Positions 834 to 64,000 of a stretch of DNA of 64,000 bases are shown here, piece after piece. The position numbers were made by a program, and so were the translations under genes. The stretch is from positions 3,590-67,589 of the forward strand of contig CALXUQ010000002.1 of the NCBI GenBank assembly GCA_944391725.1. The letters are read 5' to 3'. How positions within the stretch are numbered: position 1 is the first letter of the stretch; every line of letters begins with the position of its first letter. Below the pieces are notes generated by a model, which worked only from the letters and a program-made list of their open reading frames with translations, did no database searches and was not told where the DNA came from. The DNA comes from an uncultured Alphaproteobacteria bacterium. Lineage in GTDB: Bacteria; Pseudomonadota; Alphaproteobacteria; RF32; CAG-239.

Positions 834-909
834 GGGCGCTTAGCTCAGCTGGAAGAGCATCTCGTTTACACCGAGAGGGTCGGGAGTTCGAACCTCTCAG
901 CGCCCACCA
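834..909 (+). tRNA. tRNA-Val (anticodon TAC), CCA encoded
   Basis: The cloverleaf can be drawn by hand. The acceptor is GGGCGCT/AGCGCCC, the D-stem GCTC/GAGC, the anticodon stem TCTCG/CGAGA with loop TTTACAC, the T-arm GGGAG-TTCGAAC-CTCTC, with discriminator A and CCA. Confidence 0.9.
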
Positions 910-913
910 AAAA

Positions 914-941
914 GTCCACCTCAAATGGTGGATTTTTTTTG
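914..941 (+). terminator. rho-independent terminator after tRNA-Val
   Basis: A GTCCACC-tcaaat-GGTGGAT hairpin is followed by T8. Confidence 0.7.
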
Positions 942-954
942 TGCTTGGATTTGG

Positions 955-1186
955 CGAGATGAGGGGTTCGAACTCCCGAGGAAGGGAGTTTGACAACAAA
1001 CTTCGCTTTAGTGAAGTGCAGTTGGAAGGAAGACGTAGTCGACGATCCGAGCAAAGCGAGGACGCGCAGTGCATAGCGCGTGCGCACGACAAGCGAAAGG
1101 CGGACGAGAGTACGCCGGTGAGCCTTGGCTCATGAGCGTCAGTGCAACTCAAGCAGCGCGCAGAGTACACTCTCAGCGCCCACCAA
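955..1186 (+). repeat. tRNA-Val-associated composite repeat: inverted copy of the tRNA-Val T-arm, hairpin, ~100-nt unique segment, 75-nt conserved core, then a 16-nt direct copy of the tRNA-Val 3' end
   Basis: Positions 965-977 (GGTTCGAACTCCC) are the exact reverse complement of tRNA positions 882-894. Positions 984-994 (GGGAGTTTGAC) copy the T-arm 5' strand. Positions 1093-1167 are 95% identical to 58067-58141. Positions 1170-1185 (CTCTCAGCGCCCACCA) repeat the tRNA 3' end (894-909). Confidence 0.75.
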
Positions 1187-1220
1187 AAAGTCCACCTCAA
1201 AGGGTGGATTTTTTTTGTGC
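1187..1220 (+). terminator. second copy of the tRNA-Val terminator hairpin
   Basis: AAAAGTCCACCtcaaagGGTGGATTTTTTTT is a near-identical duplicate of 910-941. Confidence 0.6.
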
Positions 1221-1297
1221 TTGGATTTGGCGAGATGAGAGGTTTGAACTCCCAAGAGGTCGTAGGATTTATTGTGAAAGTTTGGAGTAAATGGGAA

Positions 1298-1545
1298 AAT
1301 TCGAAGATCCCTGGATGTTTTTCTGCGAAAAACGAGGGATGACTTTAAATAATGCTGGTGCAATCGAGAGATGGCCAGCACAGCTGGTGCGCGGCACGAC
1401 AAGTTAAAGGTTGAGAGTTTGTGACCAAGAGCAGAAATGCTACCGATGTGTCGATTGCTTAAATTAATTCGAAGATCCCAGGATGTTTTTCTGCGAAAAA
1501 CGAAGGATGACTTTAAATAATGCTGGCGCAATCGAGGGGTGACCC
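1298..1545 (+). repeat. 168-bp tandem duplication (unit 1 at 1298-1465; unit 2 at 1466-1545, truncated)
   Basis: AATTCGAAGATCCCtGGATGTTTTTCTGCGAAAAACGAgGGATGACTTTAAATAATGCTGGtGCAATCGAG occurs twice with 3 mismatches. Unit 1 continues into a diverged copy of the core (GCGCGGCACGACAAGTTAAAGGTTGAGAGTTTGTGACCAAGAGC). Confidence 0.7.
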
Positions 1546-38377: not shown

Positions 38378-38453
38378 GGGTGCATAGCTCAGTTGGTAGA
38401 GCAACTGACTCTTAATCAGTGGGTCTGGGGTTCGAACCCCCATGCGCCTACCA
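38378..38453 (+). tRNA. tRNA-Lys (anticodon CTT), CCA encoded
   Basis: The acceptor is GGGTGCA/TGCGCCT (with G:U pairs), the D-arm GCTC-AGTTGGTA-GAGC, the anticodon stem ACTGA/TCAGT with loop CTCTTAA, and the T-arm TGGGG-TTCGAAC-CCCCA. Confidence 0.85.
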
Positions 38454-38458
38454 TTCGT

Positions 38459-38492
38459 AAAAATCGTCTTAATTTGTTAAGGCGATTTTTTT
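38459..38492 (+). terminator. terminator hairpin after tRNA-Lys
   Basis: AATCGTCTTAAtttgTTAAGGCGATTTTTTT is a hairpin followed by a T-run. Confidence 0.6.
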
Positions 38493-38699
38493 ATATCCAT
38501 ATTAAGGGGTTCTCACCCTAAAGGGTTCTTCTGGCTCGTAAGTGTTTTTACAAACACTAACTCGCTGCGGTCACTTGGTTTGTAACATTCGTTTCGCGTC
38601 GCAGGCAGCGCCTGAGGCATCAGTTAGTTGCTTTACGTATATGCCTTGTATCCGCGATGCTTTCTATGTGCCGGTTGCTTGAATTAATTTGTAGCTTCC

Positions 38700-38760
38700 T
38701 TCACGATTGCTCCACAATCGTGTGATGACTTTAAATAAGACTAAAGCAATCGAGAACAGC
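38700..38760 (+). repeat. third copy of the GATGACTTTAAATAA...GCAATCGAGA motif, preceded by the hairpin CACGATTGctccaCAATCGTG
   Basis: GATGACTTTAAATAA (38723-38737) and GCAATCGAGA (38745-38754) are shared with 1338-1366 and 1506-1534. Confidence 0.6.
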
Positions 38761-38797
38761 AATTATTTAAACAATATGTGGAATAGGTTGCAAATTC

Positions 38798-57889: not shown

Positions 57890-57979
57890 GGAGAGGTGGC
57901 AGAGTGGTTTAATGCAGCGGTCTTGAAAACCGTCGAGGGGGCGACCCCTCCCAGAGTTCGAATCTCTGCCTCTCCGCCA
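57890..57979 (+). tRNA. tRNA-Ser (anticodon TGA), long variable arm, CCA encoded
   Basis: The acceptor is GGAGAGG/CCTCTCC, the anticodon loop CTTGAAA, the long extra arm CGAGGGGGCGACCCCTC and the T-arm CAGAG-TTCGAAT-CTCTG. Confidence 0.85.
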
Positions 57980-57983
57980 TTAT

Positions 57984-58017
57984 AAAAAAGACGACCTTTA
58001 GGGTCGTTTTTTTTATA
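57984..58017 (+). terminator. terminator after tRNA-Ser (AAAAAAGACGACCtttaGGGTCGTTTTTTTT)
   Basis: A perfect hairpin is followed by T8. Confidence 0.7.
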
Positions 58018-58027
58018 ATTAGAGATA

Positions 58028-58152
58028 TGGATTGATTCGAACTCTGGGAGAAGAGTTCGACTACCAGCGAAAGGCGGACGAGAGTACGCCGGTGAGCTTT
58101 AAGCTCATGAGCGCCAGTGCAACTCAAGCAGCGCGCAGAGTAATCTCTGCCT
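58028..58152 (+). repeat. tRNA-Ser-associated composite repeat: inverted T-arm copy, hairpin, 75-nt core, then an 11-nt direct copy of the tRNA-Ser T-loop/acceptor strand
   Basis: Positions 58036-58049 (ATTCGAACTCTGGG) are the exact reverse complement of tRNA-Ser CCCAGAGTTCGAAT. Positions 58067-58141 are 95% identical to 1093-1167. Positions 58142-58152 (ATCTCTGCCTC) copy tRNA positions 57961-57971. Confidence 0.75.
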
Positions 58153-58175
58153 CAACTATAATGCAAATTGCTCAC

Positions 58176-58892
58176 TTATCTTAGGTGTTCTATGCCGGTC
58201 TTGACCACTTTGGCCGGATTGCCCGCAATTATGGTGTTTTCTTCTTTGAATTTTCTGCTCACTACACTTCCCATCGCAACGATTGTTTGATTGGGAATGG
58301 AAGCATTCTTGGTAAATTGACTGTTTTGGCAGATCCAACAGTTATCACCTATCATTACTTCGTATTTTTGATTGTTGATAATTTTATTGCTAGCTTTGTC
58401 TATAATTGTATGTCCATCAGCGGTCCAAATAGTGATGTTTTTGGAAAAAAGTGCCCGATTACCAATCCAACACGAGGTTTCATTTCTTATAACTAATTCT
58501 AATCCCCAAATACTTGCTTCTTCCCCTATATGACAATGTTGGTTTTGTCCGTCGCAACATTTAATTAATGTATTGCGAATTTTTCCGTTGCGACCAATAT
58601 CTATTTGGCAATTATTGCCGGTGCATTTTATGATTGAATTTTCAAATATACACGGAAATCCAATCTTGATGAGGTTGTTTGTTCCCCTTAAGATTATTTT
58701 TAGTCCTTTTATACGGCCAAATCGCAGCCTTTTTTCTCCTTTGGAGCTTACTAAAAAAATTTGGTTGTGAGAACCGCTAATAAGGTACATGCCGGGAATG
58801 AGTGAAGTTAAGTGTTTTAGTTTGTGTCGAAAATTGCGACGTTGTGCTTGGGGAATGAATATACTCAATAAATTGAAAATCAGTTTAAGCAT
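58176..58892 (-). CDS. hexapeptide-repeat (left-handed beta-helix) acyltransferase
   Basis: Imperfect hexad repeats run through the C-terminal half (IGDNCWICQNSQFTKNASIPNQTIVAMGSVV). The gene is AT-rich relative to flanking core genes. Confidence 0.6.
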   Translation of the reverse strand: MLKLIFNLLSIFIPQAQRRNFRHKLKHLTSLIPGMYLISGSHNQIFLVSSKGEKRLRFGRIKGLKIILRGTNNLIKIGFPCIFENSIIKCTGNNCQIDIGRNGKIRNTLIKCCDGQNQHCHIGEEASIWGLELVIRNETSCWIGNRALFSKNITIWTADGHTIIDKASNKIINNQKYEVMIGDNCWICQNSQFTKNASIPNQTIVAMGSVVSRKFKEENTIIAGNPAKVVKTGIEHLR

Positions 58893-58949
58893 TGGTTTCC
58901 TCCATCCAAAATAAAATGAAACCCACCAATTTTTGGTGGGCGGATGTTC

Positions 58950-59085
58950 AGAAACCGTAATACAATTAGAACGGCTCGACCTATTTGGCTCGTAGCCTTA
59001 TTCAGCCGACATCCGTCCGTGACAGAAATCGGCATGATTGTTTAAAGTCGGCATGCTCTGCGACTAATTGTATTAAGGGTTCTGA
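58950..59085. repeat. imperfect inverted repeat pair (~22 bp arms) enclosing ~85 bp
   Basis: TCAGAAACCGTAATACAATTAG (58950-58971) matches CTAATTGTATTAAGGGTTCTGA (59064-59085); the 12-nt core TAATACAATTAG is a perfect palindromic match. Confidence 0.55.
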
Positions 59086-59344
59086 CGCCCTGAACTTAAT
59101 ATTTTTAAGTCTGATTTGAACTTATTCTAAAAATTTTATCAATTCAAGTGATTTTTAATTGTGACATTAATTAATTGTTTGGAAAAATTATAACTCAGGT
59201 GTGTTCTTGTATAATATAAAGTTTTTTGTTGTATAAAACTTAATTATATTCTGGAAATTTGTGTGGTTAGTTGTTATAACCAAGTTAGTGTTTGGCTTTT
59301 TTTGTATAAAATTAGCTATGCTCTGGACTAATTGAGGATTATAT

Positions 59345-60199
59345 ATGACTAAAATTTCTGTACTTATGCCGGTGTATAAAACTCCTGAAACTTATTTGCG
59401 GGAGGCGATTGAAAGTATCTTAAATCAATCCTATAGTGATTTTGAACTGGTAATTTTAGATGATTGTCCTGATGATAATCGGGAACAAATCGTCAAATCT
59501 TATCGTGATAAACGTATAAAATATTTGCAAAATGAAAAAAATCTCGGAATTACGCCTAGTCGGAACAAATTGATTGCTCTTGCAAAAGGAGAATATTTGG
59601 CCATATTTGACCATGATGATATCTCTTTGCCGGACAGGCTTGCCAAACAAGCGGCCGTACTAGATGCTAACCCTGATATCGGGGTGGTCGGTTGCCAAGT
59701 GGAATTTTTTCAGAATCAATCTAGAATTAGTAAGTATCCTCAAAATGACCAAGATATCAAAGTTGCTTTGATGGCAACTTGCGCGCTTATTCATCCGGGG
59801 GCAATGCTCCGAAAAAAAGTGCTGACCGATAATCATATTGGCTATGAACAAGAGTTTTCTCCGTCTGAAGATTATCGCTTGTGGTGTAGGTTGATTCCAT
59901 TTACCAAATTTTACAATATTCCCGAAGTGTTACTGCGTTATCGGGACCATGATTGTAATACTTCTAAAATTCAAAAAGCTAAAATGGCAGCGGCAACTCG
60001 GGCAATTTTTGCACAGGTGCGTTCTGAAAATCCGGTTTTATACAATCGTTTCTTGATGGAGGCAACCAAAGTTTATCAATTTAATCTATTTGGGATTATC
60101 CCGATTGTGACAATTAAAATTCAGTTGATGCGTGCAAAAGTTTATTTATTCGGTGCTTTGTTGATTGCTTCTTGTAAGTGGTCGTGTAAAATCAGGTAA
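59345..60199 (+). CDS. family 2 glycosyltransferase
   Basis: ISVLMPVYKTPETYLREAIESILNQSYSDFELVILDDCPDD is the GT2 N-terminal signature with the DxD region. Confidence 0.8.
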   Translation: MTKISVLMPVYKTPETYLREAIESILNQSYSDFELVILDDCPDDNREQIVKSYRDKRIKYLQNEKNLGITPSRNKLIALAKGEYLAIFDHDDISLPDRLAKQAAVLDANPDIGVVGCQVEFFQNQSRISKYPQNDQDIKVALMATCALIHPGAMLRKKVLTDNHIGYEQEFSPSEDYRLWCRLIPFTKFYNIPEVLLRYRDHDCNTSKIQKAKMAAATRAIFAQVRSENPVLYNRFLMEATKVYQFNLFGIIPIVTIKIQLMRAKVYLFGALLIASCKWSCKIR

Positions 60200-60275
60200 G
60201 CATCATGATTGAAATTTTTACTATCAGACCTTGTGATAAAAAAAGGCTTCCTTCAAGGAAGCCTTTTTCTTATGC

Positions 60276-61670
60276 TTAGAACTTGCGAGCCGGTACACGG
60301 TTGCGCCAGTTGGCCTCAATTTTTTCGAGCGAAATACCTTTGGTTTCGGGAACGTAAAAGAAGACAAACAACAGGCACAAGACCGAAATCACTCCGAAAA
60401 TCCAGAATGTGTACCCCTCGCCTATCTTGGCTGTTAGTATCGGGAATGAGGATACCACAATCAGGTTGAAAGTGAAATTGGCAACCGTACAAACTCCCAT
60501 GGCAAAGCCGCGAATCTTTAAGGGCAGTACTTCTGAAACCATAATCCAACCAATCGGCCCTAAGCTGAAGGCAAAGCAAGCAATGTACACAACTACACTA
60601 CCAACAGCCACCCAGCGCAGGCTCTCGCCTAAAACATCGCCATAGCGGAAAGCAGTGCCTAAGCAGATGAGCGCAATCAGCATACCCCACAAGCCGGCAT
60701 AGAGCAAAGGTTTGCGTCCCCAGCGGTCGGCAAAGAAAATGGCCACCAAGGTCATCACAAAATTGACGGCACCGACACCGATGGTGGCATAGATTGCGCT
60801 GGTATTGGAGGCAAAACCGGCATTTTGGAAAATGGTGGCGGTGTAATATATAATCGTATTAATACCGGTGCAAATCTGGGAAAACATCATCCCGACGCCG
60901 ACAAAAATCGGCATCAACATCCAGCTTTGAAAGCTAATCTTGTTATTGCTACTGCTTTTTTCGGCAGCCAGATTTTCTTTAATTTCTTTTATGTGTTTGG
61001 TTACGCTTTGGTCAGGTTCAATTTTCTTAAACACGGCTTTGGCTTCGTCTTCGCGTTGTTTGCTCAACAGCCAGCGAGGAGTGTCTTCCAAGAAAATAAT
61101 ACCAACTAACAAGACCAAGGCCGGCAAAACCCCTGCTCCCATCATCCAGCGCCAGTTATACAAGGCTTCGGCAAAAGCGCCGTTGACCAAGTATGAGAAC
61201 AATATTCCGGCGGTAATTGCCAGTTGGAATAGTGATACCAACATACCGCGAATGCGCTGCGGGGCAATTTCTGATAAGTAAACCGGTACGACAAAGTTTA
61301 CCATACCAACGGCTACACCTATTAACATTCGAGAAATGACCAGCCAGGTGATATCGGGTGAAAATGCGCACATAAATGATGCAATAATAAATATTAATGC
61401 CGTGGCGACAATCACCTTCTTGCGGCCGTATAAGTCGGCTAAAAATCCGTTTCCGGCGGCTCCGATGATAGCACCGACAATGGCGGCGCTTACCAATAAG
61501 CTTTGCTGATTTTCGGCCAAGTTCCAATCGGATTTGATAAAGAGCATGGCGCCTGAAATTACACCCATATCGAATCCGGATAATAATCCGCCCAATGAGG
61601 CAACTATGGTGATGACATATAGCCAAAAGTGCTTCTTTAGCGTTGGGGTTGAGGAAGTGCGTATTTCCAT
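60276..61670 (-). CDS. MFS transporter, sugar porter family
   Basis: It has 12 TM helices, GRKKVIVATALIF (the G-R-[KR] loop), the PETKG motif and the ...DTPRWL... motif (PESPRWL-like). Confidence 0.8.
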   Translation of the reverse strand: MEIRTSSTPTLKKHFWLYVITIVASLGGLLSGFDMGVISGAMLFIKSDWNLAENQQSLLVSAAIVGAIIGAAGNGFLADLYGRKKVIVATALIFIIASFMCAFSPDITWLVISRMLIGVAVGMVNFVVPVYLSEIAPQRIRGMLVSLFQLAITAGILFSYLVNGAFAEALYNWRWMMGAGVLPALVLLVGIIFLEDTPRWLLSKQREDEAKAVFKKIEPDQSVTKHIKEIKENLAAEKSSSNNKISFQSWMLMPIFVGVGMMFSQICTGINTIIYYTATIFQNAGFASNTSAIYATIGVGAVNFVMTLVAIFFADRWGRKPLLYAGLWGMLIALICLGTAFRYGDVLGESLRWVAVGSVVVYIACFAFSLGPIGWIMVSEVLPLKIRGFAMGVCTVANFTFNLIVVSSFPILTAKIGEGYTFWIFGVISVLCLLFVFFYVPETKGISLEKIEANWRNRVPARKF

Positions 61671-61800
61671 GATCTAACCTTTCTATAATTGTTTGGATAG
61701 CATATATTATACTTATTCATTTAATGTTCTTCAACCCATAATGTATATAATAATAAGGCAAAGAGTAATATATCACCCTTTGCCTTGTGAGTAATTATTG

Positions 61801-62310
61801 TTAGTCCCAGACAATGTTGTCCAATTCTTCTACAGTTGTGGCTGCTTCAACCTGAGTTTTGAGTGTGGTTGCTTTTTCGTGGCAGCGGTTAGACCATTCT
61901 GCTAAGGCCACGACTAAGCCCATCAGTTCTTGCGCGGTCAAGTCAATCGTTGAGTTATCCTGACAAGTCCAGGTAATGGTTGGTGTTTCTTCGCTCATGA
62001 CAGATAGTTGCATGGCTTGAGCCGCACAGGTCATGCGGATACAAGATATTTCATCACTGTCAAATACCTTGCCCATATACTCAAAACCACCCTGCTCTGC
62101 CGCATCGCGCGCCTTGTTAATCTCGGCTCGTTTAGCAAGTTTTAGTTCCTCAAGCGGTTGCGTGGGACAAGTACTTTCAAAATAGTACCTGCCGTCATAG
62201 CCTTGCACGATTTTTTCTTCGGCTTGAAGAGCATTTTCATCATACTTATATCCGGCAAAGCTTGAAATTGTGCCATCATCATTAGCTATATAATAAATTT
62301 CTTCATTCAT
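61801..62310 (-). CDS. phage tail-fibre assembly/chaperone-like protein (DUF4376-type)
   Basis: It lies immediately downstream of a tail-fibre gene. Its central region KLAKRAEINKARDAAEQGGFEYMGKVFDSD matches the pattern I associate with DUF4376/Tfa proteins. Confidence 0.5.
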   Translation of the reverse strand: MNEEIYYIANDDGTISSFAGYKYDENALQAEEKIVQGYDGRYYFESTCPTQPLEELKLAKRAEINKARDAAEQGGFEYMGKVFDSDEISCIRMTCAAQAMQLSVMSEETPTITWTCQDNSTIDLTAQELMGLVVALAEWSNRCHEKATTLKTQVEAATTVEELDNIVWD

Positions 62311-62322
62311 GTGTTTAACTCC

Positions 62323-64000
62323 TTATACATAGGGATATAAAATGACGGTTGAAACGCTGGTAAACTCTATTTTATCGCCAGATTTTACAGGATAAGCCTC
62401 GGATGACTTTGTACCATCGAGCCCAGTCCATGTAGCTACCGTGACGGAATTAATTTTCAAATTGCCATTGTGAAAACCGCCGCCAGTGTTTTCATTTATC
62501 ACCAGCAATCCGTTTGTTGATGCGGTTGCCCCAGAGCTTATGGTTATTCCGGCAGAATAATTTACTTGTGCACCATAGTTTCTGACCCATTGGGTGGTAG
62601 CAATCTGAGTAGATTTATCTGTAGCAACCGGCGGTTTGATGCTATATGCATAACCGCTATTATCAATTCTTATTCCTCCAATGGTGGAACCGTTCTGCAC
62701 ATTTGCAAATGATGCAGAATTATCCCCATTATAATATTGTATTTTCGCATTGTTGTTTGTGTTTGCAGGGTCAACACATTGCATAATACTTACACCGTTA
62801 GGATTGCCAACAGTAATATTGCTAGTAAAAATCTTTTCGCCTTCAATGGTTTCATTGCCTGTTTTGTGGACTACCTCTTGGTCATCAGCAAGTTTAACCG
62901 GTAATTTAGGATTAAACGAAGTCACTCGACCGGTTGAGTCTGCGTTTAATGTACCAAATAACAAAAATTGTGCTGTTTTTATTCCGTTAAAATAGTTGTA
63001 ATTTTCTTGATTATTATGATAATAATTTTGACTATAAGTTAATGTTAATACGCTAGTTCCAGTAAAGTAAGCCAAGATTCCGTTATCTAAAGATACACCA
63101 TTGTTTATGGTTGTTACTTTCGTTGTCATAAACTTAGCATTATTTAAACTACCATCAGTATTTCTGCCGCTTGGTATAAGCCCTTCGACACCTGGTAATG
63201 AAAATATTGTTCTGCCGATATAGCCAAAGCCATTGAAGACTTGGTCGATTGAGGAAAATCCCGTGCCATTGGTGCTGAAAAGACCTAAGGGAAATGAAAT
63301 ATTACCACTTGTCCAATTTGAACCACCATCAGTAGTCCTTTTAATTAGATTATTTTTGGTATCATACCAGTACAAAAAGTTAGTACCAGATGGAGCGTCT
63401 GTACCTGAAAATACTTGAGTGGATAAAATTCTTTCCAATCTACCATCAATGTAAAATACAAATAAATTATTGTAATTTGTTGTATCTGTTAAGGATATAT
63501 CTGAATTAACTAAGATTTCCTTGAACACACCTGCACCATTTGGTATATACACCTTACTTCCTGCTTTTAACGTCAGCGTACCATCAACAAGCTCCAACAT
63601 AATGTCTTGAGGTATCTTAGTGATACAGTTGGTGATTTGGGTTTCGTTTAATGTGCCGTCAGTCACCGCTTTAGCATTTTCGGCCCAATATTTAGCACTT
63701 CCACTGGGCTGTTCTTGGATTGTACCAACCGCCCACTTGTGGGCTTCTTCTTTGCTAGTGGTAGCATTTTGTTCATGATTTTGAACTAAATTTTCTTTGT
63801 TGATTACATTTTGCTCAGCAGCCAAAACGGTTGTTTGGGTGTCTATCATCAGCTGTTCTAAATCGTCATACGCCAAATTTGAGTTGCGCAGAGAGATGCC
63901 GTTCTCGGCCCAGACAATGGCTTTGCCGATTTCGGGCTCGGGAAGGTTAACGCTTTGAGCGCTGCCTGAATATGGCGGAAAACTTACACTACGTCCGATT
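62323..64000 (-). CDS. phage-type tail fibre protein, 5'-truncated by the window edge (the listed ORF starts at an in-frame TTG, and the reading frame stays open to position 64000)
   Basis: The N-terminal region ...NATTSKEEAHKWAVGTIQEQPSGSAKYWAENAKA resembles the conserved fibre-shaft start of P2/Mu-type fibres. A Gly/Ser/Thr/Asn-rich beta-rich C-terminus follows. There is no in-frame stop between 63876 and 64000. Confidence 0.6.
   Translation of the reverse strand, partial: IGRSVSFPPYSGSAQSVNLPEPEIGKAIVWAENGISLRNSNLAYDDLEQLMIDTQTTVLAAEQNVINKENLVQNHEQNATTSKEEAHKWAVGTIQEQPSGSAKYWAENAKAVTDGTLNETQITNCITKIPQDIMLELVDGTLTLKAGSKVYIPNGAGVFKEILVNSDISLTDTTNYNNLFVFYIDGRLERILSTQVFSGTDAPSGTNFLYWYDTKNNLIKRTTDGGSNWTSGNISFPLGLFSTNGTGFSSIDQVFNGFGYIGRTIFSLPGVEGLIPSGRNTDGSLNNAKFMTTKVTTINNGVSLDNGILAYFTGTSVLTLTYSQNYYHNNQENYNYFNGIKTAQFLLFGTLNADSTGRVTSFNPKLPVKLADDQEVVHKTGNETIEGEKIFTSNITVGNPNGVSIMQCVDPANTNNNAKIQYYNGDNSASFANVQNGSTIGGIRIDNSGYAYSIKPPVATDKSTQIATTQWVRNYGAQVNYSAGITISSGATASTNGLLVINENTGGGFHNGNLKINSVTVATWTGLDGTKSSEAYPVKSGDKIEFTSVSTVILYPYV

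What the first reader, a model, noticed from the sequence alone, without database searches (positions are those of the whole stretch)
57890..58152. Second occurrence of the split-tRNA plus core architecture, at tRNA-Ser
50 nt after tRNA-Ser, positions 58036-58049 (ATTCGAACTCTGGG) are the exact reverse complement of its T-arm (CCCAGAGTTCGAAT). They hairpin with AGAGTTCGAC (58051-58060), which is a direct T-arm copy. The 75-nt core (58067-58141) then follows, and immediately after it ATCTCTGCCTC (58142-58152), identical to tRNA-Ser positions 57961-57971. The hairpin arms differ from the tRNA-Val copy in sequence (AACTCCC/GGGAGTT versus ACTCT/AGAGT) but keep the pairing. In each case the arms mimic the local tRNA. 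This points to a copy mechanism that uses the adjacent tRNA as template, for example target-primed or recombination-based. It also marks this tRNA-Ser as the boundary of the AT-richer accessory block to its right.
Basis: seen in the sequence. Interest (0 to 1): 0.7.

Follow-up and report, generated by a model that had tools for sequence, protein, structure and literature searches.

The report
Tiny gene-less insert at tRNA T-loops
Just after tRNA-Ser, and again after tRNA-Val, sits a 190-280 bp gene-less DNA module that carries a copy of the tRNA's 3' end, a terminator, a hairpin matching that tRNA's T-arm and a shared 75-nt core; it belongs to a previously undescribed family found at tRNA genes of uncultured gut Alphaproteobacteria, present in some strains and absent in others.

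Summary
One period of the module runs in this order:
- the tRNA 3' segment from T-loop A58 to CCA
- a terminator and a spacer
- an inverted copy of the T-arm 5' half, a loop, then a direct copy ending TTYGA
- a 12-nt linker, or about 105 nt in long forms
- a 75-nt core ending RTA
- another copy of the tRNA 3' segment

I found the same architecture at six tRNA species (Ser-TGA, Val-TAC, Val-GAC, Pro-GGG, His-GTG, Met-CAT) in about eight metagenomic lineages. All 16 core copies in about 610 kb of held DNA are tRNA-linked.

Four strains of the window's species lack the 276-nt Val unit. Another strain has three stacked units at tRNA-Ser, and more distant relatives have empty sites.

The units have no ORF, Rfam match, promoter or significant covariation. 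No recombinase gene lies beside any unit.

Best reading: a non-autonomous integrative module, like a cis-mobilizable element (CIME), that recombines within the tRNA 3' segment and accumulates in arrays. The enzyme and the role of the hairpin and core are inferred, not shown. The 11-kb block to the right is a variable insertion, but no distal repeat was found.

The parts
57890..57979 (+). tRNA-Ser(TGA), intact. Its last 19 nt (57961-57979, A58 to CCA) are the segment that is repeated after the core.
   Evidence: ARAGORN; Rfam tRNA 58 bits; repeat positions
57980..58018 (.). Bidirectional intrinsic terminator (palindrome ATTATAAAAAAGACGACC-TTTAG-GGTCGTTTTTTTTATAA). It is homologous to the native tRNA-Ser terminator of the unit-free relative L060.
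   Evidence: (I1)
58019..58033 (+). Spacer. Its similarity to an inverted acceptor 3' strand is not significant here.
   Evidence: p = 0.43
58034..58050 (+). X': inverted copy of tRNA positions 57948-57964 (end of the variable arm, T-stem 5' strand and T-loop), 17/17 nt.
   Evidence: (I1)
58037..58060 (+). Hairpin H0: arms 58037-58045 and 58052-58060 (9 bp), loop GGGAGA. The right arm (X) is a direct copy of the T-stem 5' strand plus TTCGA.
58061..58072 (+). 12-nt linker CTACCAGCGAAA. This length is constant in all short-form units.
   Evidence: distance from the end of X to P1 is 12 nt in six units and 13 nt in one
58073..58090 (+). P1: GGCGGAC-GAGA-GUACGCC hairpin with a GNRA-type loop, the most conserved part of the core.
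   Evidence: variant GGCGGGCGGAAGAACGCC in L047
58091..58142 (+). Rest of the core: P2 hairpin 58092-58108, P3 hairpin 58111-58136 with loop AACTCAA, and tail GCAGAGTA ending at 58142.
58142..58153 (+). 12-nt second copy of the tRNA 3' segment (AATCTCTGCCTC = 57961-57972), cut short at tRNA position 69/70 where the accessory block begins. It is full length (through CCA) after unit E(a) in strain L032.
834..909 (+). tRNA-Val(TAC), intact.
894..1169 (+). 276-nt long-form unit at tRNA-Val, in this order: tRNA 3' segment 894-909; terminator 910-940; X' 960-979; loop 978-983; X 984-993; optional module about 995-1085; P1 1099-1116; core to 1167. The unit is absent from strains L038, L039, L040 and L042.
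   Evidence: (D1, I13)
1170..1256 (+). Older copy of tRNA 3' segment + terminator + spacer + degenerate X'. It is 95% identical to 894-980 and matches the 'empty' allele of other strains.
   Evidence: (D1)

Best explanation
The feature is one member of a family of very small (about 190-280 bp), gene-less integrative modules, which I call E units, that sit at the 3' side of tRNA genes in uncultured gut Alphaproteobacteria.

One period of the repeat consists of:
- the tRNA 3' segment from T-loop A58 to CCA
- an intrinsic terminator and a spacer
- a hairpin whose arms are the inverted and direct copies of that tRNA's T-stem 5' strand plus T-loop
- a 12-nt linker, or a ~105-nt optional module
- the 75-nt conserved core ending in RTA

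Shown:
- The tRNA stays intact and its 3' segment recurs on the far side of the core.
- Units are stacked, and the same unit is present or absent among strains.
- A unit carries its own tRNA-specific parts.

Inferred:
- A unit enters or leaves by recombination within the repeated tRNA 3' segment (A58-A76), as tRNA-targeting phages and islands do. The regenerated tRNA then reads into the unit's terminator, and the previous 3' end is pushed downstream.
- Repeated events and other unit families (U', U'') and larger islands using the same or nearby sites build arrays.
- The recombinase acts in trans, because no unit encodes a protein.
- The tRNA-specific hairpin and the conserved core are the cis sites the recombinase needs, that is, an attP-like arm. 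In short, the unit would be an attP-only parasite, a CIME-like element.

The sequence alone cannot tell which circular permutation of the period is the mobile unit. It also cannot tell whether the substrate is double-stranded DNA or a folded single strand.
For: - Same architecture, orientation and A58 junction in 9 of 9 units examined, at six tRNA species.
- All 16 core hits of a covariance model in 431 kb are tRNA-linked; a further 181 kb gave only the known L013 copy. There are no solo copies.
- Within-species polymorphism: four strains lack exactly the 276-nt Val unit.
- The distal repeat matches the empty allele, while the proximal repeat has three private SNPs.
- Strain L032 has the array tRNA - E(a) unit - full tRNA 3' copy - U'' unit - 11-nt tRNA 3' copy - E(b) unit - 12-nt stub, where the window has E(b) only.
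- L005 and L001 have E and U' units in tandem at tRNA-His, next to phage genes.
- In L047 the terminators on the two sides of the unit differ, so the repeat is only the 19-nt tRNA segment.
- Empty tRNA-Ser sites occur in L017, L050 and L060.
- No ORF; no recombinase next to any unit.
- Stacking by successive integration at a tRNA, and elements that keep att sites but lack genes, are both documented (10.1101/2020.12.28.424599; PMC5704250).
Against: - No integrase, or any other candidate enzyme, was identified. Only about 64 kb of the window's genome could be read.
- No circular form or excision junction was seen.
- The Val presence/absence could also come from RecA deletion or allelic exchange across the 87-nt repeats.
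- The sequence left of the junction (constant ...AGAGTA) does not form the inverted core-type site expected of a T-loop-type tyrosine-integrase attP.
- The hairpin loop varies from 0 to 6 nt across the E and U' families, which does not fit a fixed double-stranded binding site.
- A classical attP has no known need for a target-mimicking hairpin.
- The cores of the Ser and Val units in one genome are about 95% identical (70 of 74 aligned columns) while their terminators and spacers are unrelated. This needs either core exchange between tRNA-specific lineages or recent retargeting.
- The Ser unit's terminator looks host-derived.
Confidence: 0.5

Rival explanations
1. Inert scars. The units are what remains after prophages or islands that integrated at the tRNA were deleted (attL fused to attR). 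They are not mobile themselves, and the core is just phage DNA that lay next to attP.
For: - Phage-like genes lie beside the arrays: a T7-type portal and a MuF/GH108 protein in L001, and tail-fibre-like DUF4376/BppL_N genes right of tRNA-Ser.
- Degenerate older copies exist (window 1170-1256; the tails of the L007/L011 arrays).
- Short direct motifs recur in the cores (AAGCGRR in E, ACGAGT in U'), as arm-type integrase sites would.
Against: - Independent deletions would not leave the same boundaries, the same 12-nt linker and no trace of phage genes at six different tRNAs in about eight lineages.
- The core was not found in IMG/VR with three patterns, nor in real phage records.
- A complete unit with private SNPs is polymorphic within one species.
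Confidence: 0.15
2. The unit moves through a folded single strand of DNA, as CTX phage, integron cassettes or HUH/rolling-circle elements do. The tRNA-specific hairpin rebuilds, as a duplex, the left half of the target T-arm, so the att site is displayed by folding. The core hairpins would serve as origin or recognition signals.
For: - The hairpin stem always equals the local T-stem/T-loop duplex, while the loop length is free at 0-6 nt.
- Substitutions give G-T pairs only on the tRNA-sense strand: H0 TTTGA, P2 G-T versus A-T, and P3 T-A versus T-G.
- In folds of whole units, the region 5' of the hairpin pairs with the tRNA 3' copy after the core, which places the core as a branch at A58 (Val, Pro and His units).
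- The inverted copy reaches the acceptor end in some units (His L001 p = 0.007; U'' p = 0.004 and 0.037).
- GCGAAGC motifs occur in the cores. I recall these as unusually stable DNA mini-hairpins, from memory only.
Against: - In most E units the inverted acceptor part is not significant.
- No HUH, Xer-like or IntI-like gene was seen.
- No single-stranded phage is involved: the only 'phage' hit is a misfiled bacterial contig.
- Top-strand C-to-T changes also fit the general mutation bias of this strand (GC skew).
Confidence: 0.15
3. The core plus hairpin is a structured non-coding RNA made from the tRNA transcription unit (read-through or 3' trailer). It would have a function tied to the tRNA, such as a guide, decoy or processing signal, and its spread is secondary.
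For: - It is always on the tRNA-sense strand, directly downstream.
- The GNRA-type loop of P1 is kept in the divergent L047 copy (GAGA to GGAA), and the 7-nt loop AACUCAA is conserved.
- Wobble-compatible changes occur on the sense strand only.
- X' is antisense to tRNA positions 46-61.
Against: - It lies behind a strong terminator and has no promoter-like site.
- There is no Rfam match, even at E-value thresholds of 1-5.
- Covariation is not above shuffled controls: 83-247 of 500 shuffles do as well, and P2 is unpaired in 5 of 11 sequences.
- Fold z-scores of the core alone are between -0.2 and -1.0.
- It is dispensable within a species.
Confidence: 0.12
4. The core is a small transposon or retro-element that inserts into T-loop DNA at TTCGA^A. 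The flanking tRNA copies are made at each insertion by target-primed or template-switching synthesis.
For: - The core is bounded on both sides by T-loop halves at A58.
- The Ser and Val cores in one genome are about 95% identical while everything around them is locus-specific.
- The Ser unit's terminator is host-like.
- The tRNA-derived segments are arranged forward, then reverse, then forward.
Against: - The proximal and distal repeats differ by private SNPs and the distal one equals the empty allele.
- There are no solo cores or cores in non-tRNA sites.
- P1 and P3 are unlike each other, so the ends do not resemble IS200/IS605 ends.
- No terminal inverted repeats, no poly-A, and no RT or transposase seen.
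Confidence: 0.08

Closest known systems
CIMEs (cis-mobilizable elements) and tandem accretion at tRNA genes (PMC5704250)
   Same: Flanked by attL/attR-type direct repeats of the tRNA 3' end. No integration or transfer genes. Found in tandem with other elements that use the same site. Presumed to depend on an integrase supplied in trans.
   Different: CIMEs are decayed ICEs/IMEs of kilobase size with gene remnants. E units are 190-280 bp and have no gene remnants. They form a conserved family with fixed boundaries across six tRNA targets, and they carry a target-mimicking hairpin.
tRNA-targeting integrative elements with tyrosine integrases, including stacked arrays such as tycheposons (10.1101/2020.12.28.424599)
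   Same: Integration regenerates the tRNA, leaves partial tRNA copies, and new arrivals push older ones outward. Degenerate remnants accumulate, and a variable island lies beside the tRNA.
   Different: Those elements carry an integrase and cargo. Here there is neither. The identity block starts exactly at T-loop A58 and is followed by a terminator inside the element.
Folded single-strand att sites: CTX phage attP(+) and integron attC (from my own knowledge)
   Same: Inverted repeats that, when folded, imitate the double-stranded target or a recombinase site. Integrated copies occur in arrays. Loop length is tolerated.
   Different: Those use XerCD at dif or IntI at attI. No such enzyme, no single-stranded replicon and no dif/attI-like target are seen here. 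The resemblance is architectural only and was not tested.
MITEs / IS200-IS605-derived palindrome-associated elements
   Same: Small, gene-less and hairpin-rich. Orientation-specific position 3' of a short conserved target (TTCGA). Non-autonomous.
   Different: No terminal inverted repeats. The two subterminal hairpins are unrelated. Copies occur only at tRNA genes, and each carries a tRNA-specific 3' segment and terminator.

Membership tests
tRNA-gene integrative element (site-specific, T-loop sublocation) | Direct repeat of the tRNA 3' segment on both sides of the inserted DNA, with an intact tRNA at one end | tested here: met
   Ser: 12 nt in the window and the full A58-A76 (19 nt) in L032. 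Val: 87 nt. Pro: about 75 nt. Met: 19 nt. The tRNAs score 58-69 bits.
tRNA-gene integrative element (site-specific, T-loop sublocation) | Integrase gene inside the element | tested here: not met
   Units are 190-280 bp and contain no ORF. Neighbouring genes are housekeeping.
tRNA-gene integrative element (site-specific, T-loop sublocation) | Occupied and empty alleles of the same site | tested here: met
   tRNA-Val: window occupied; L038, L039, L040 and L042 empty. tRNA-Ser: empty in L017, L050 and L060.
tRNA-gene integrative element (site-specific, T-loop sublocation) | Excised circular form / attP junction | not testable with these tools
   Needs raw reads or PCR.
CIME | Keeps attL and attR but lacks recombination and transfer genes | tested here: met
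CIME | Derived by decay of an ICE/IME (gene remnants, related autonomous element) | tested here: not met
   No gene remnants in any unit. No autonomous relative found in phage, plasmid or IMG/VR searches.
MITE / IS200-IS605 derivative | Terminal inverted repeats, or two similar subterminal hairpins recognised by one transposase | tested here: not met
   Left end CTACC.. and right end ..GAGTA are not inverted repeats. P1 and P3 differ in sequence and shape.
MITE / IS200-IS605 derivative | Copies dispersed at many target sites in a genome | tested here: not met
   16 of 16 copies are at tRNA T-loop junctions.
Known RNA family (Rfam 15), including small ribozymes, tmRNA and tRNA-like RNAs | Match to a curated covariance model | tested here: not met
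   Only the tRNAs reach gathering score. Nothing relevant appears at E-value thresholds of 1-5. ARAGORN finds no tmRNA.
Structured non-coding RNA (new family) | Base pairs supported by compensatory change | tested here: inconclusive
   87.6% of cells are paired, but covariation measures are not above shuffles. The set has 11 sequences, and P1 was biased by the search pattern.
IS110-type bridge/seek RNA | Non-coding RNA encoded next to a DEDD recombinase inside an insertion sequence | tested here: not met
   No adjacent ORF. Target-matching segments pair with each other in a hairpin rather than lining internal loops.

The most novel reading that the evidence does not exclude
E units are a self-contained, programmable insertion module. 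The short hairpin whose stem copies the target's T-stem/T-loop acts as the specificity determinant, displayed either in a folded single strand of DNA or in RNA. The conserved core recruits a host or helper enzyme. If so, changing the hairpin and the 19-nt tRNA segment would retarget the module to another tRNA. This would be a structure- or guide-based targeting principle for a gene-less mobile element, distinct from classical integrase attP sites.
Probability: 0.15. Interest if true: 0.85.

Novelty: new variant of a known kind. Interest (0 to 1): 0.6.

Why it matters
If these units are mobile, they are among the smallest site-specific integrative elements known, essentially an att site with no genes. 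They would show that tRNA genes in small-genome gut Alphaproteobacteria collect layers of such parasites, which also break metagenome assemblies at tRNA loci.

The combination of a conserved core with target-specific segments at six tRNAs raises a concrete and testable question about how specificity is reset. The units also supply the terminator of the tRNA they sit behind, so they may affect tRNA 3' processing.

Practically, they mark variable islands: here, an 11-kb block of glycosyltransferase and tail-fibre-like genes.

Tried and rejected
- Rfam at gathering and E-value thresholds: only tRNAs.
- tmRNA, or a tRNA-like fold of the core: ARAGORN negative. The anticodon-like loop is not kept in the Val copy.
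- Hammerhead or twister likeness: CUCAUGAG lacks the essential G and there is no GAAA; no Rfam hit.
- Group I/II intron ends: absent.
- Segmental duplication of the Val and Ser loci: flanks, terminators and spacers are unrelated.
- Phage origin: IMG/VR scans with three patterns gave nothing real. The INPHARED hits MT837473.1, MT838567.1 and MT835910.1 are unverified virome contigs; MT837473.1 carries bacterial housekeeping genes (DsbD, MnmA, QueH), and the other two have no annotation and were not gene-checked.
- Plasmids: no match.
- Integrase, HUH or RT near units: none in 30 window ORFs (31 more were not scanned) or in 19 ORFs in loci L001, L007, L008, L013 and L047.
- Distal repeat of the tRNA-Ser 3' end bounding the right-hand block: not found up to hflX in L032-L037.
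- A complete inverted copy of the tRNA 3' part ('dumbbell'): significant in only 3 of 10 units.
- Covariation support for P1-P3: not significant.
- A conserved hairpin loop as an element signature: partly explained by the reverse complement of conserved tRNA positions 46-48.
- Reading L032 as proof that each unit brings its own terminator: weakened, because the U'' unit could have entered the internal tRNA copy and because the Ser terminator is host-like.

Full report
**1. Check of the observation**

ARAGORN and Rfam place tRNA-Ser(TGA) at 57890-57979, tRNA-Val(TAC) at 834-909 and tRNA-Lys(CTT) at 38378-38453.
- The reverse complement of the T-arm 5' half is at 58035-58048. As an inverted repeat it extends to 17/17 nt, 58034-58050 against 57948-57964 (I1).
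- AGAGTTCGAC is at 58052-58061.
- The core is at 58067-58142.
- ATCTCTGCCTC is at 58143-58153 and 57962-57972. With the preceding A this is a 12-nt repeat.

The core matches 1093-1167 in two blocks, 31/31 nt and 39/40 nt, separated by a 4-5 nt variable loop. It occurs only twice in the window, against none in shuffles. The hairpin TCGAACTCT-GGGAGA-AGAGTTCGA is predicted at -13.2 kcal/mol.

**2. Anatomy at tRNA-Val**

The tRNA 3' part from the T-stem 3' strand onward, the terminator, a spacer and an inverted T-arm copy (894-980) are repeated at 1170-1256 with 95% identity. The period is 276 nt (D1). Between the two copies lie, in order:
- the hairpin loop
- a direct copy GGGAGTTTGA of the T-stem 5' strand plus T-loop
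- about 105 nt of extra sequence
- the core

So one period is: tRNA 3' segment, terminator, spacer, inverted T-arm copy (X'), loop, direct copy (X), linker, core.

**3. The same thing elsewhere**

Searches:
- A genome-collection scan with 20 nt of the core's first hairpin (P1) gave six loci in uncultured Alphaproteobacteria MAGs from gut or rumen, plus four chance hits in GC-rich coding DNA.
- A metagenome scan gave three more loci.
- A blastn search of a phage collection found a divergent copy in MT837473.1. This is an unverified 'phage' contig that in fact carries DsbD, MnmA and QueH.

Targets found are Ser-TGA, Val-TAC, Val-GAC, Pro-GGG, His-GTG and Met-CAT. In 9 of 9 units examined:
- X' matches the reverse complement of the local tRNA positions 46-61, with 0-3 mismatches.
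- X matches positions 49-58, with 0-3 mismatches, and ends in TTYGA.
- P1 starts 12 nt after X (13 nt in one unit), or about 105 nt in two long forms. The extra modules of the long forms begin alike, CTTCNCTT(T)AGTG.
- The core ends in RTA.
- Identity to the tRNA resumes at A58.

A covariance model of the core found 16 copies in 431 kb of held DNA, and a further 181 kb gave only the already known L013 copy. All are in this context.

**4. Polymorphism and arrays**

*Strain differences at tRNA-Val.* Strains of the window's own species were fetched through identical neighbouring proteins. At tRNA-Val, L038, L039, L040 and L042 lack exactly the 276-nt unit. Their sequence equals the window's distal repeat; L040 is identical apart from the length of the T run. 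The window's proximal repeat has three private differences. The unit that is present in the window therefore carried its own copy of the tRNA segment, terminator and X'. It is not a duplication of the target made at insertion.

*Arrays at tRNA-Ser.* L015 has the same unit as the window, and its contig breaks inside the core. L032 reads:
- tRNA, then unit E(a), then a complete 18-19-nt tRNA 3' copy
- then a second terminator and a different ~190-nt core (U''), then an 11-nt tRNA 3' copy
- then the first terminator again, unit E(b) and the 12-nt stub, as in the window

L033 shares the U''-E(b) part.

*Other loci.*
- L022-L025, from a more distant species, carry a U'' unit at tRNA-Ser with a 75-nt repeat.
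- L005 has E and U' units in tandem at tRNA-His.
- L001 has U', a two-gene phage fragment and E in series, next to a T7-type portal gene.
- Empty tRNA-Ser sites are seen in L017, L050 and L060.

**5. What the units lack**

- No ORF.
- No Rfam family, even at E-value thresholds of 1-5.
- No sigma-70-like promoter inside the unit; it lies behind a strong bidirectional terminator.
- No statistically supported covariation. 87.6% of cells are paired, but 83-247 of 500 shuffles do as well, and P2 is unpaired in five of eleven sequences.
- No recombinase, HUH protein or reverse transcriptase among the 30 window ORFs scanned (31 further candidate ORFs between 26.4 and 55.5 kb were not scanned), or among the genes checked next to units elsewhere.
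- No match in IMG/VR or plasmids.

**6. Most likely explanation**

The pattern is that of site-specific integration at a tRNA gene: an intact tRNA, a direct repeat of its 3' segment, stacking of units, occupied and empty alleles, and larger islands on the same site. Successive arrivals displace older ones, as described for tycheposons (10.1101/2020.12.28.424599). Elements that keep att sites but no genes are known as CIMEs (PMC5704250).

I therefore read E units as attP-only, non-autonomous integrative modules that recombine within A58-A76. The 'split tRNA' is the junction between a unit's right end (X - linker - core) and the next copy of the tRNA 3' segment.

- Shown: the anatomy, the family, the junction position, the polymorphism, the arrays, and the fact that a unit carries its own tRNA-specific parts.
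- Inferred: the recombination itself, a helper enzyme acting in trans, and any role for the hairpin and core.

Sequence alone cannot tell which circular permutation of the period is the mobile entity. The L032 array and the L047 locus (different terminators on the two sides) favour a unit that begins with the tRNA segment and its terminator. On the other hand, the terminator of the Ser unit is homologous to the native terminator of a unit-free relative. The tRNA-proximal part was therefore copied from a host locus at some point.

**7. What does not fit a textbook attP**

- The sequence left of the junction is constant (..AGAGTA) rather than an inverted partner of the T-stem 3' strand.
- The target-specific inverted repeat sits 90-200 nt away and has a loop of 0-6 nt (E and U' families). 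That fits a hairpin better than a double-stranded dimer site.
- Substitutions yield G-T/G-U pairs only on the tRNA-sense strand.
- In folds of whole units, the hairpin and the pairing between the upstream spacer and the downstream tRNA copy place the core as a branch exactly at A58.

These points keep alive a folded-single-strand mechanism (CTX- or attC-like, or HUH-mediated), or an RNA role. The support is weak:
- The inverted copy of the acceptor part is significant in only 3 of 10 units.
- Part of the loop conservation is just the complement of tRNA positions 46-48.
- This strand has a general C-to-T bias.

One further open point is that the Ser and Val cores in one genome are about 95% identical (70 of 74 aligned columns) although everything tRNA-specific around them differs. 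This needs either core exchange between lineages or recent retargeting.

**8. The block to the right**

Genes at 58176-63876 encode a hexapeptide transferase, a GT2 glycosyltransferase, an MFS sugar transporter, and DUF4376 and BppL_N tail-fibre-like proteins. In same-species strains the block runs about 11 kb to hflX-hfq, with a different glycosyltransferase set. In relatives hflX lies about 1 kb from tRNA-Ser. So the block is a variable insertion bounded by the tRNA locus. However, it joins the 12-nt stub of a duplicated tRNA piece at position 69/70, and no distal tRNA-Ser repeat exists up to hflX.

**9. Verdict**

This is a real, recurrent and previously uncurated family. It is best filed as a new, extremely small variant of non-autonomous tRNA-integrating elements, with an unexplained target-mimicking hairpin and conserved core. 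Confidence is about 0.5 for the integrative-module reading. The enzymology is open.

Noticed in passing
window 1298-1376 and 1466-1544; also 38716-38755: A 79-nt direct repeat with a 168-nt period lies downstream of the tRNA-Val units. Strains L038-L040 and L042 have only one copy. A related 40-nt motif (GATGACTTTAAATAA..GCAATCGAGA) lies downstream of tRNA-Lys. This may be another small repeat or non-coding RNA family at tRNA loci.
   Followed up: partly
window 38455-38790: About 330 nt of non-coding, hairpin-prone DNA follow tRNA-Lys. It has no inverted T-arm copy, no second tRNA 3' copy and no E core.
   Followed up: partly
L005 6262-6392; L001 2405-2537: A second core family (U') at tRNA-His has the same layout: inverted and direct T-arm copies with no loop, a ~125-nt core with repeated ACGAGT motifs, then the tRNA 3' copy.
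   Followed up: partly
L032 16280-16075 (minus strand); L022 9715-9590 (minus strand); L048 about 1640-1850; L049 521-610: A third core family (U'') at tRNA-Ser joins in the acceptor stem (position 66/67) and ends in its own terminator-like hairpin. Similar cores occur in two contigs with no tRNA nearby.
   Followed up: partly
L047 (MT837473.1), L048 (MT838567.1), L049 (MT835910.1): Three records filed as 'UNVERIFIED Bacteriophage sp.' in the phage collection may be bacterial chromosome fragments. MT837473.1 carries DsbD, MnmA and QueH. The other two have no annotation and their genes were not checked.
   Followed up: partly
L032 16463-16515 (minus strand): In this scaffold tRNA-Ser lacks 33 internal nt (cttgaaA|TCTCTGCC). 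This is probably an assembly collapse between GAA repeats. Many contigs of related strains end at or inside the units.
   Followed up: no
L060 6394-6430 versus window 57980-58014: The native tRNA-Ser terminator of a unit-free relative (AAACGACCTTTTAGGGTCGTTTTT) is homologous to the terminator inside the window's Ser unit.
   Followed up: yes
window 58076-58084 (P1): P1 contains GGACGAGAG, the exact reverse complement of CTCTCGTCC in tRNA-Pro(GGG), one of the family's targets. This could be a relic of an ancestral Pro-specific copy or chance, given about 40 tRNAs to compare.
   Followed up: no
window 58948-58969 / 59064-59085: A 22-nt inverted repeat (91% complementary) with a 94-nt spacer lies in the intergenic region right of the acetyltransferase gene. 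It is conserved in strain L032.
   Followed up: no
window 58176-64000; L032 4600-15100: A variable ~11-kb block lies between tRNA-Ser and hflX. It has strain-specific glycosyltransferases, an MFS transporter, tail-fibre-like genes (DUF4376, BppL_N) and five small unknown ORFs. No integrase was seen.
   Followed up: partly
window 1-64000: GC skew is positive in nearly every 2-kb bin up to about 60 kb (cumulative skew peaks at 3.63). G+C is about 42%. The genes scanned are mostly housekeeping, plus ankyrin-repeat and SIR2 proteins, consistent with a small-genome host-associated alphaproteobacterium.
   Followed up: no
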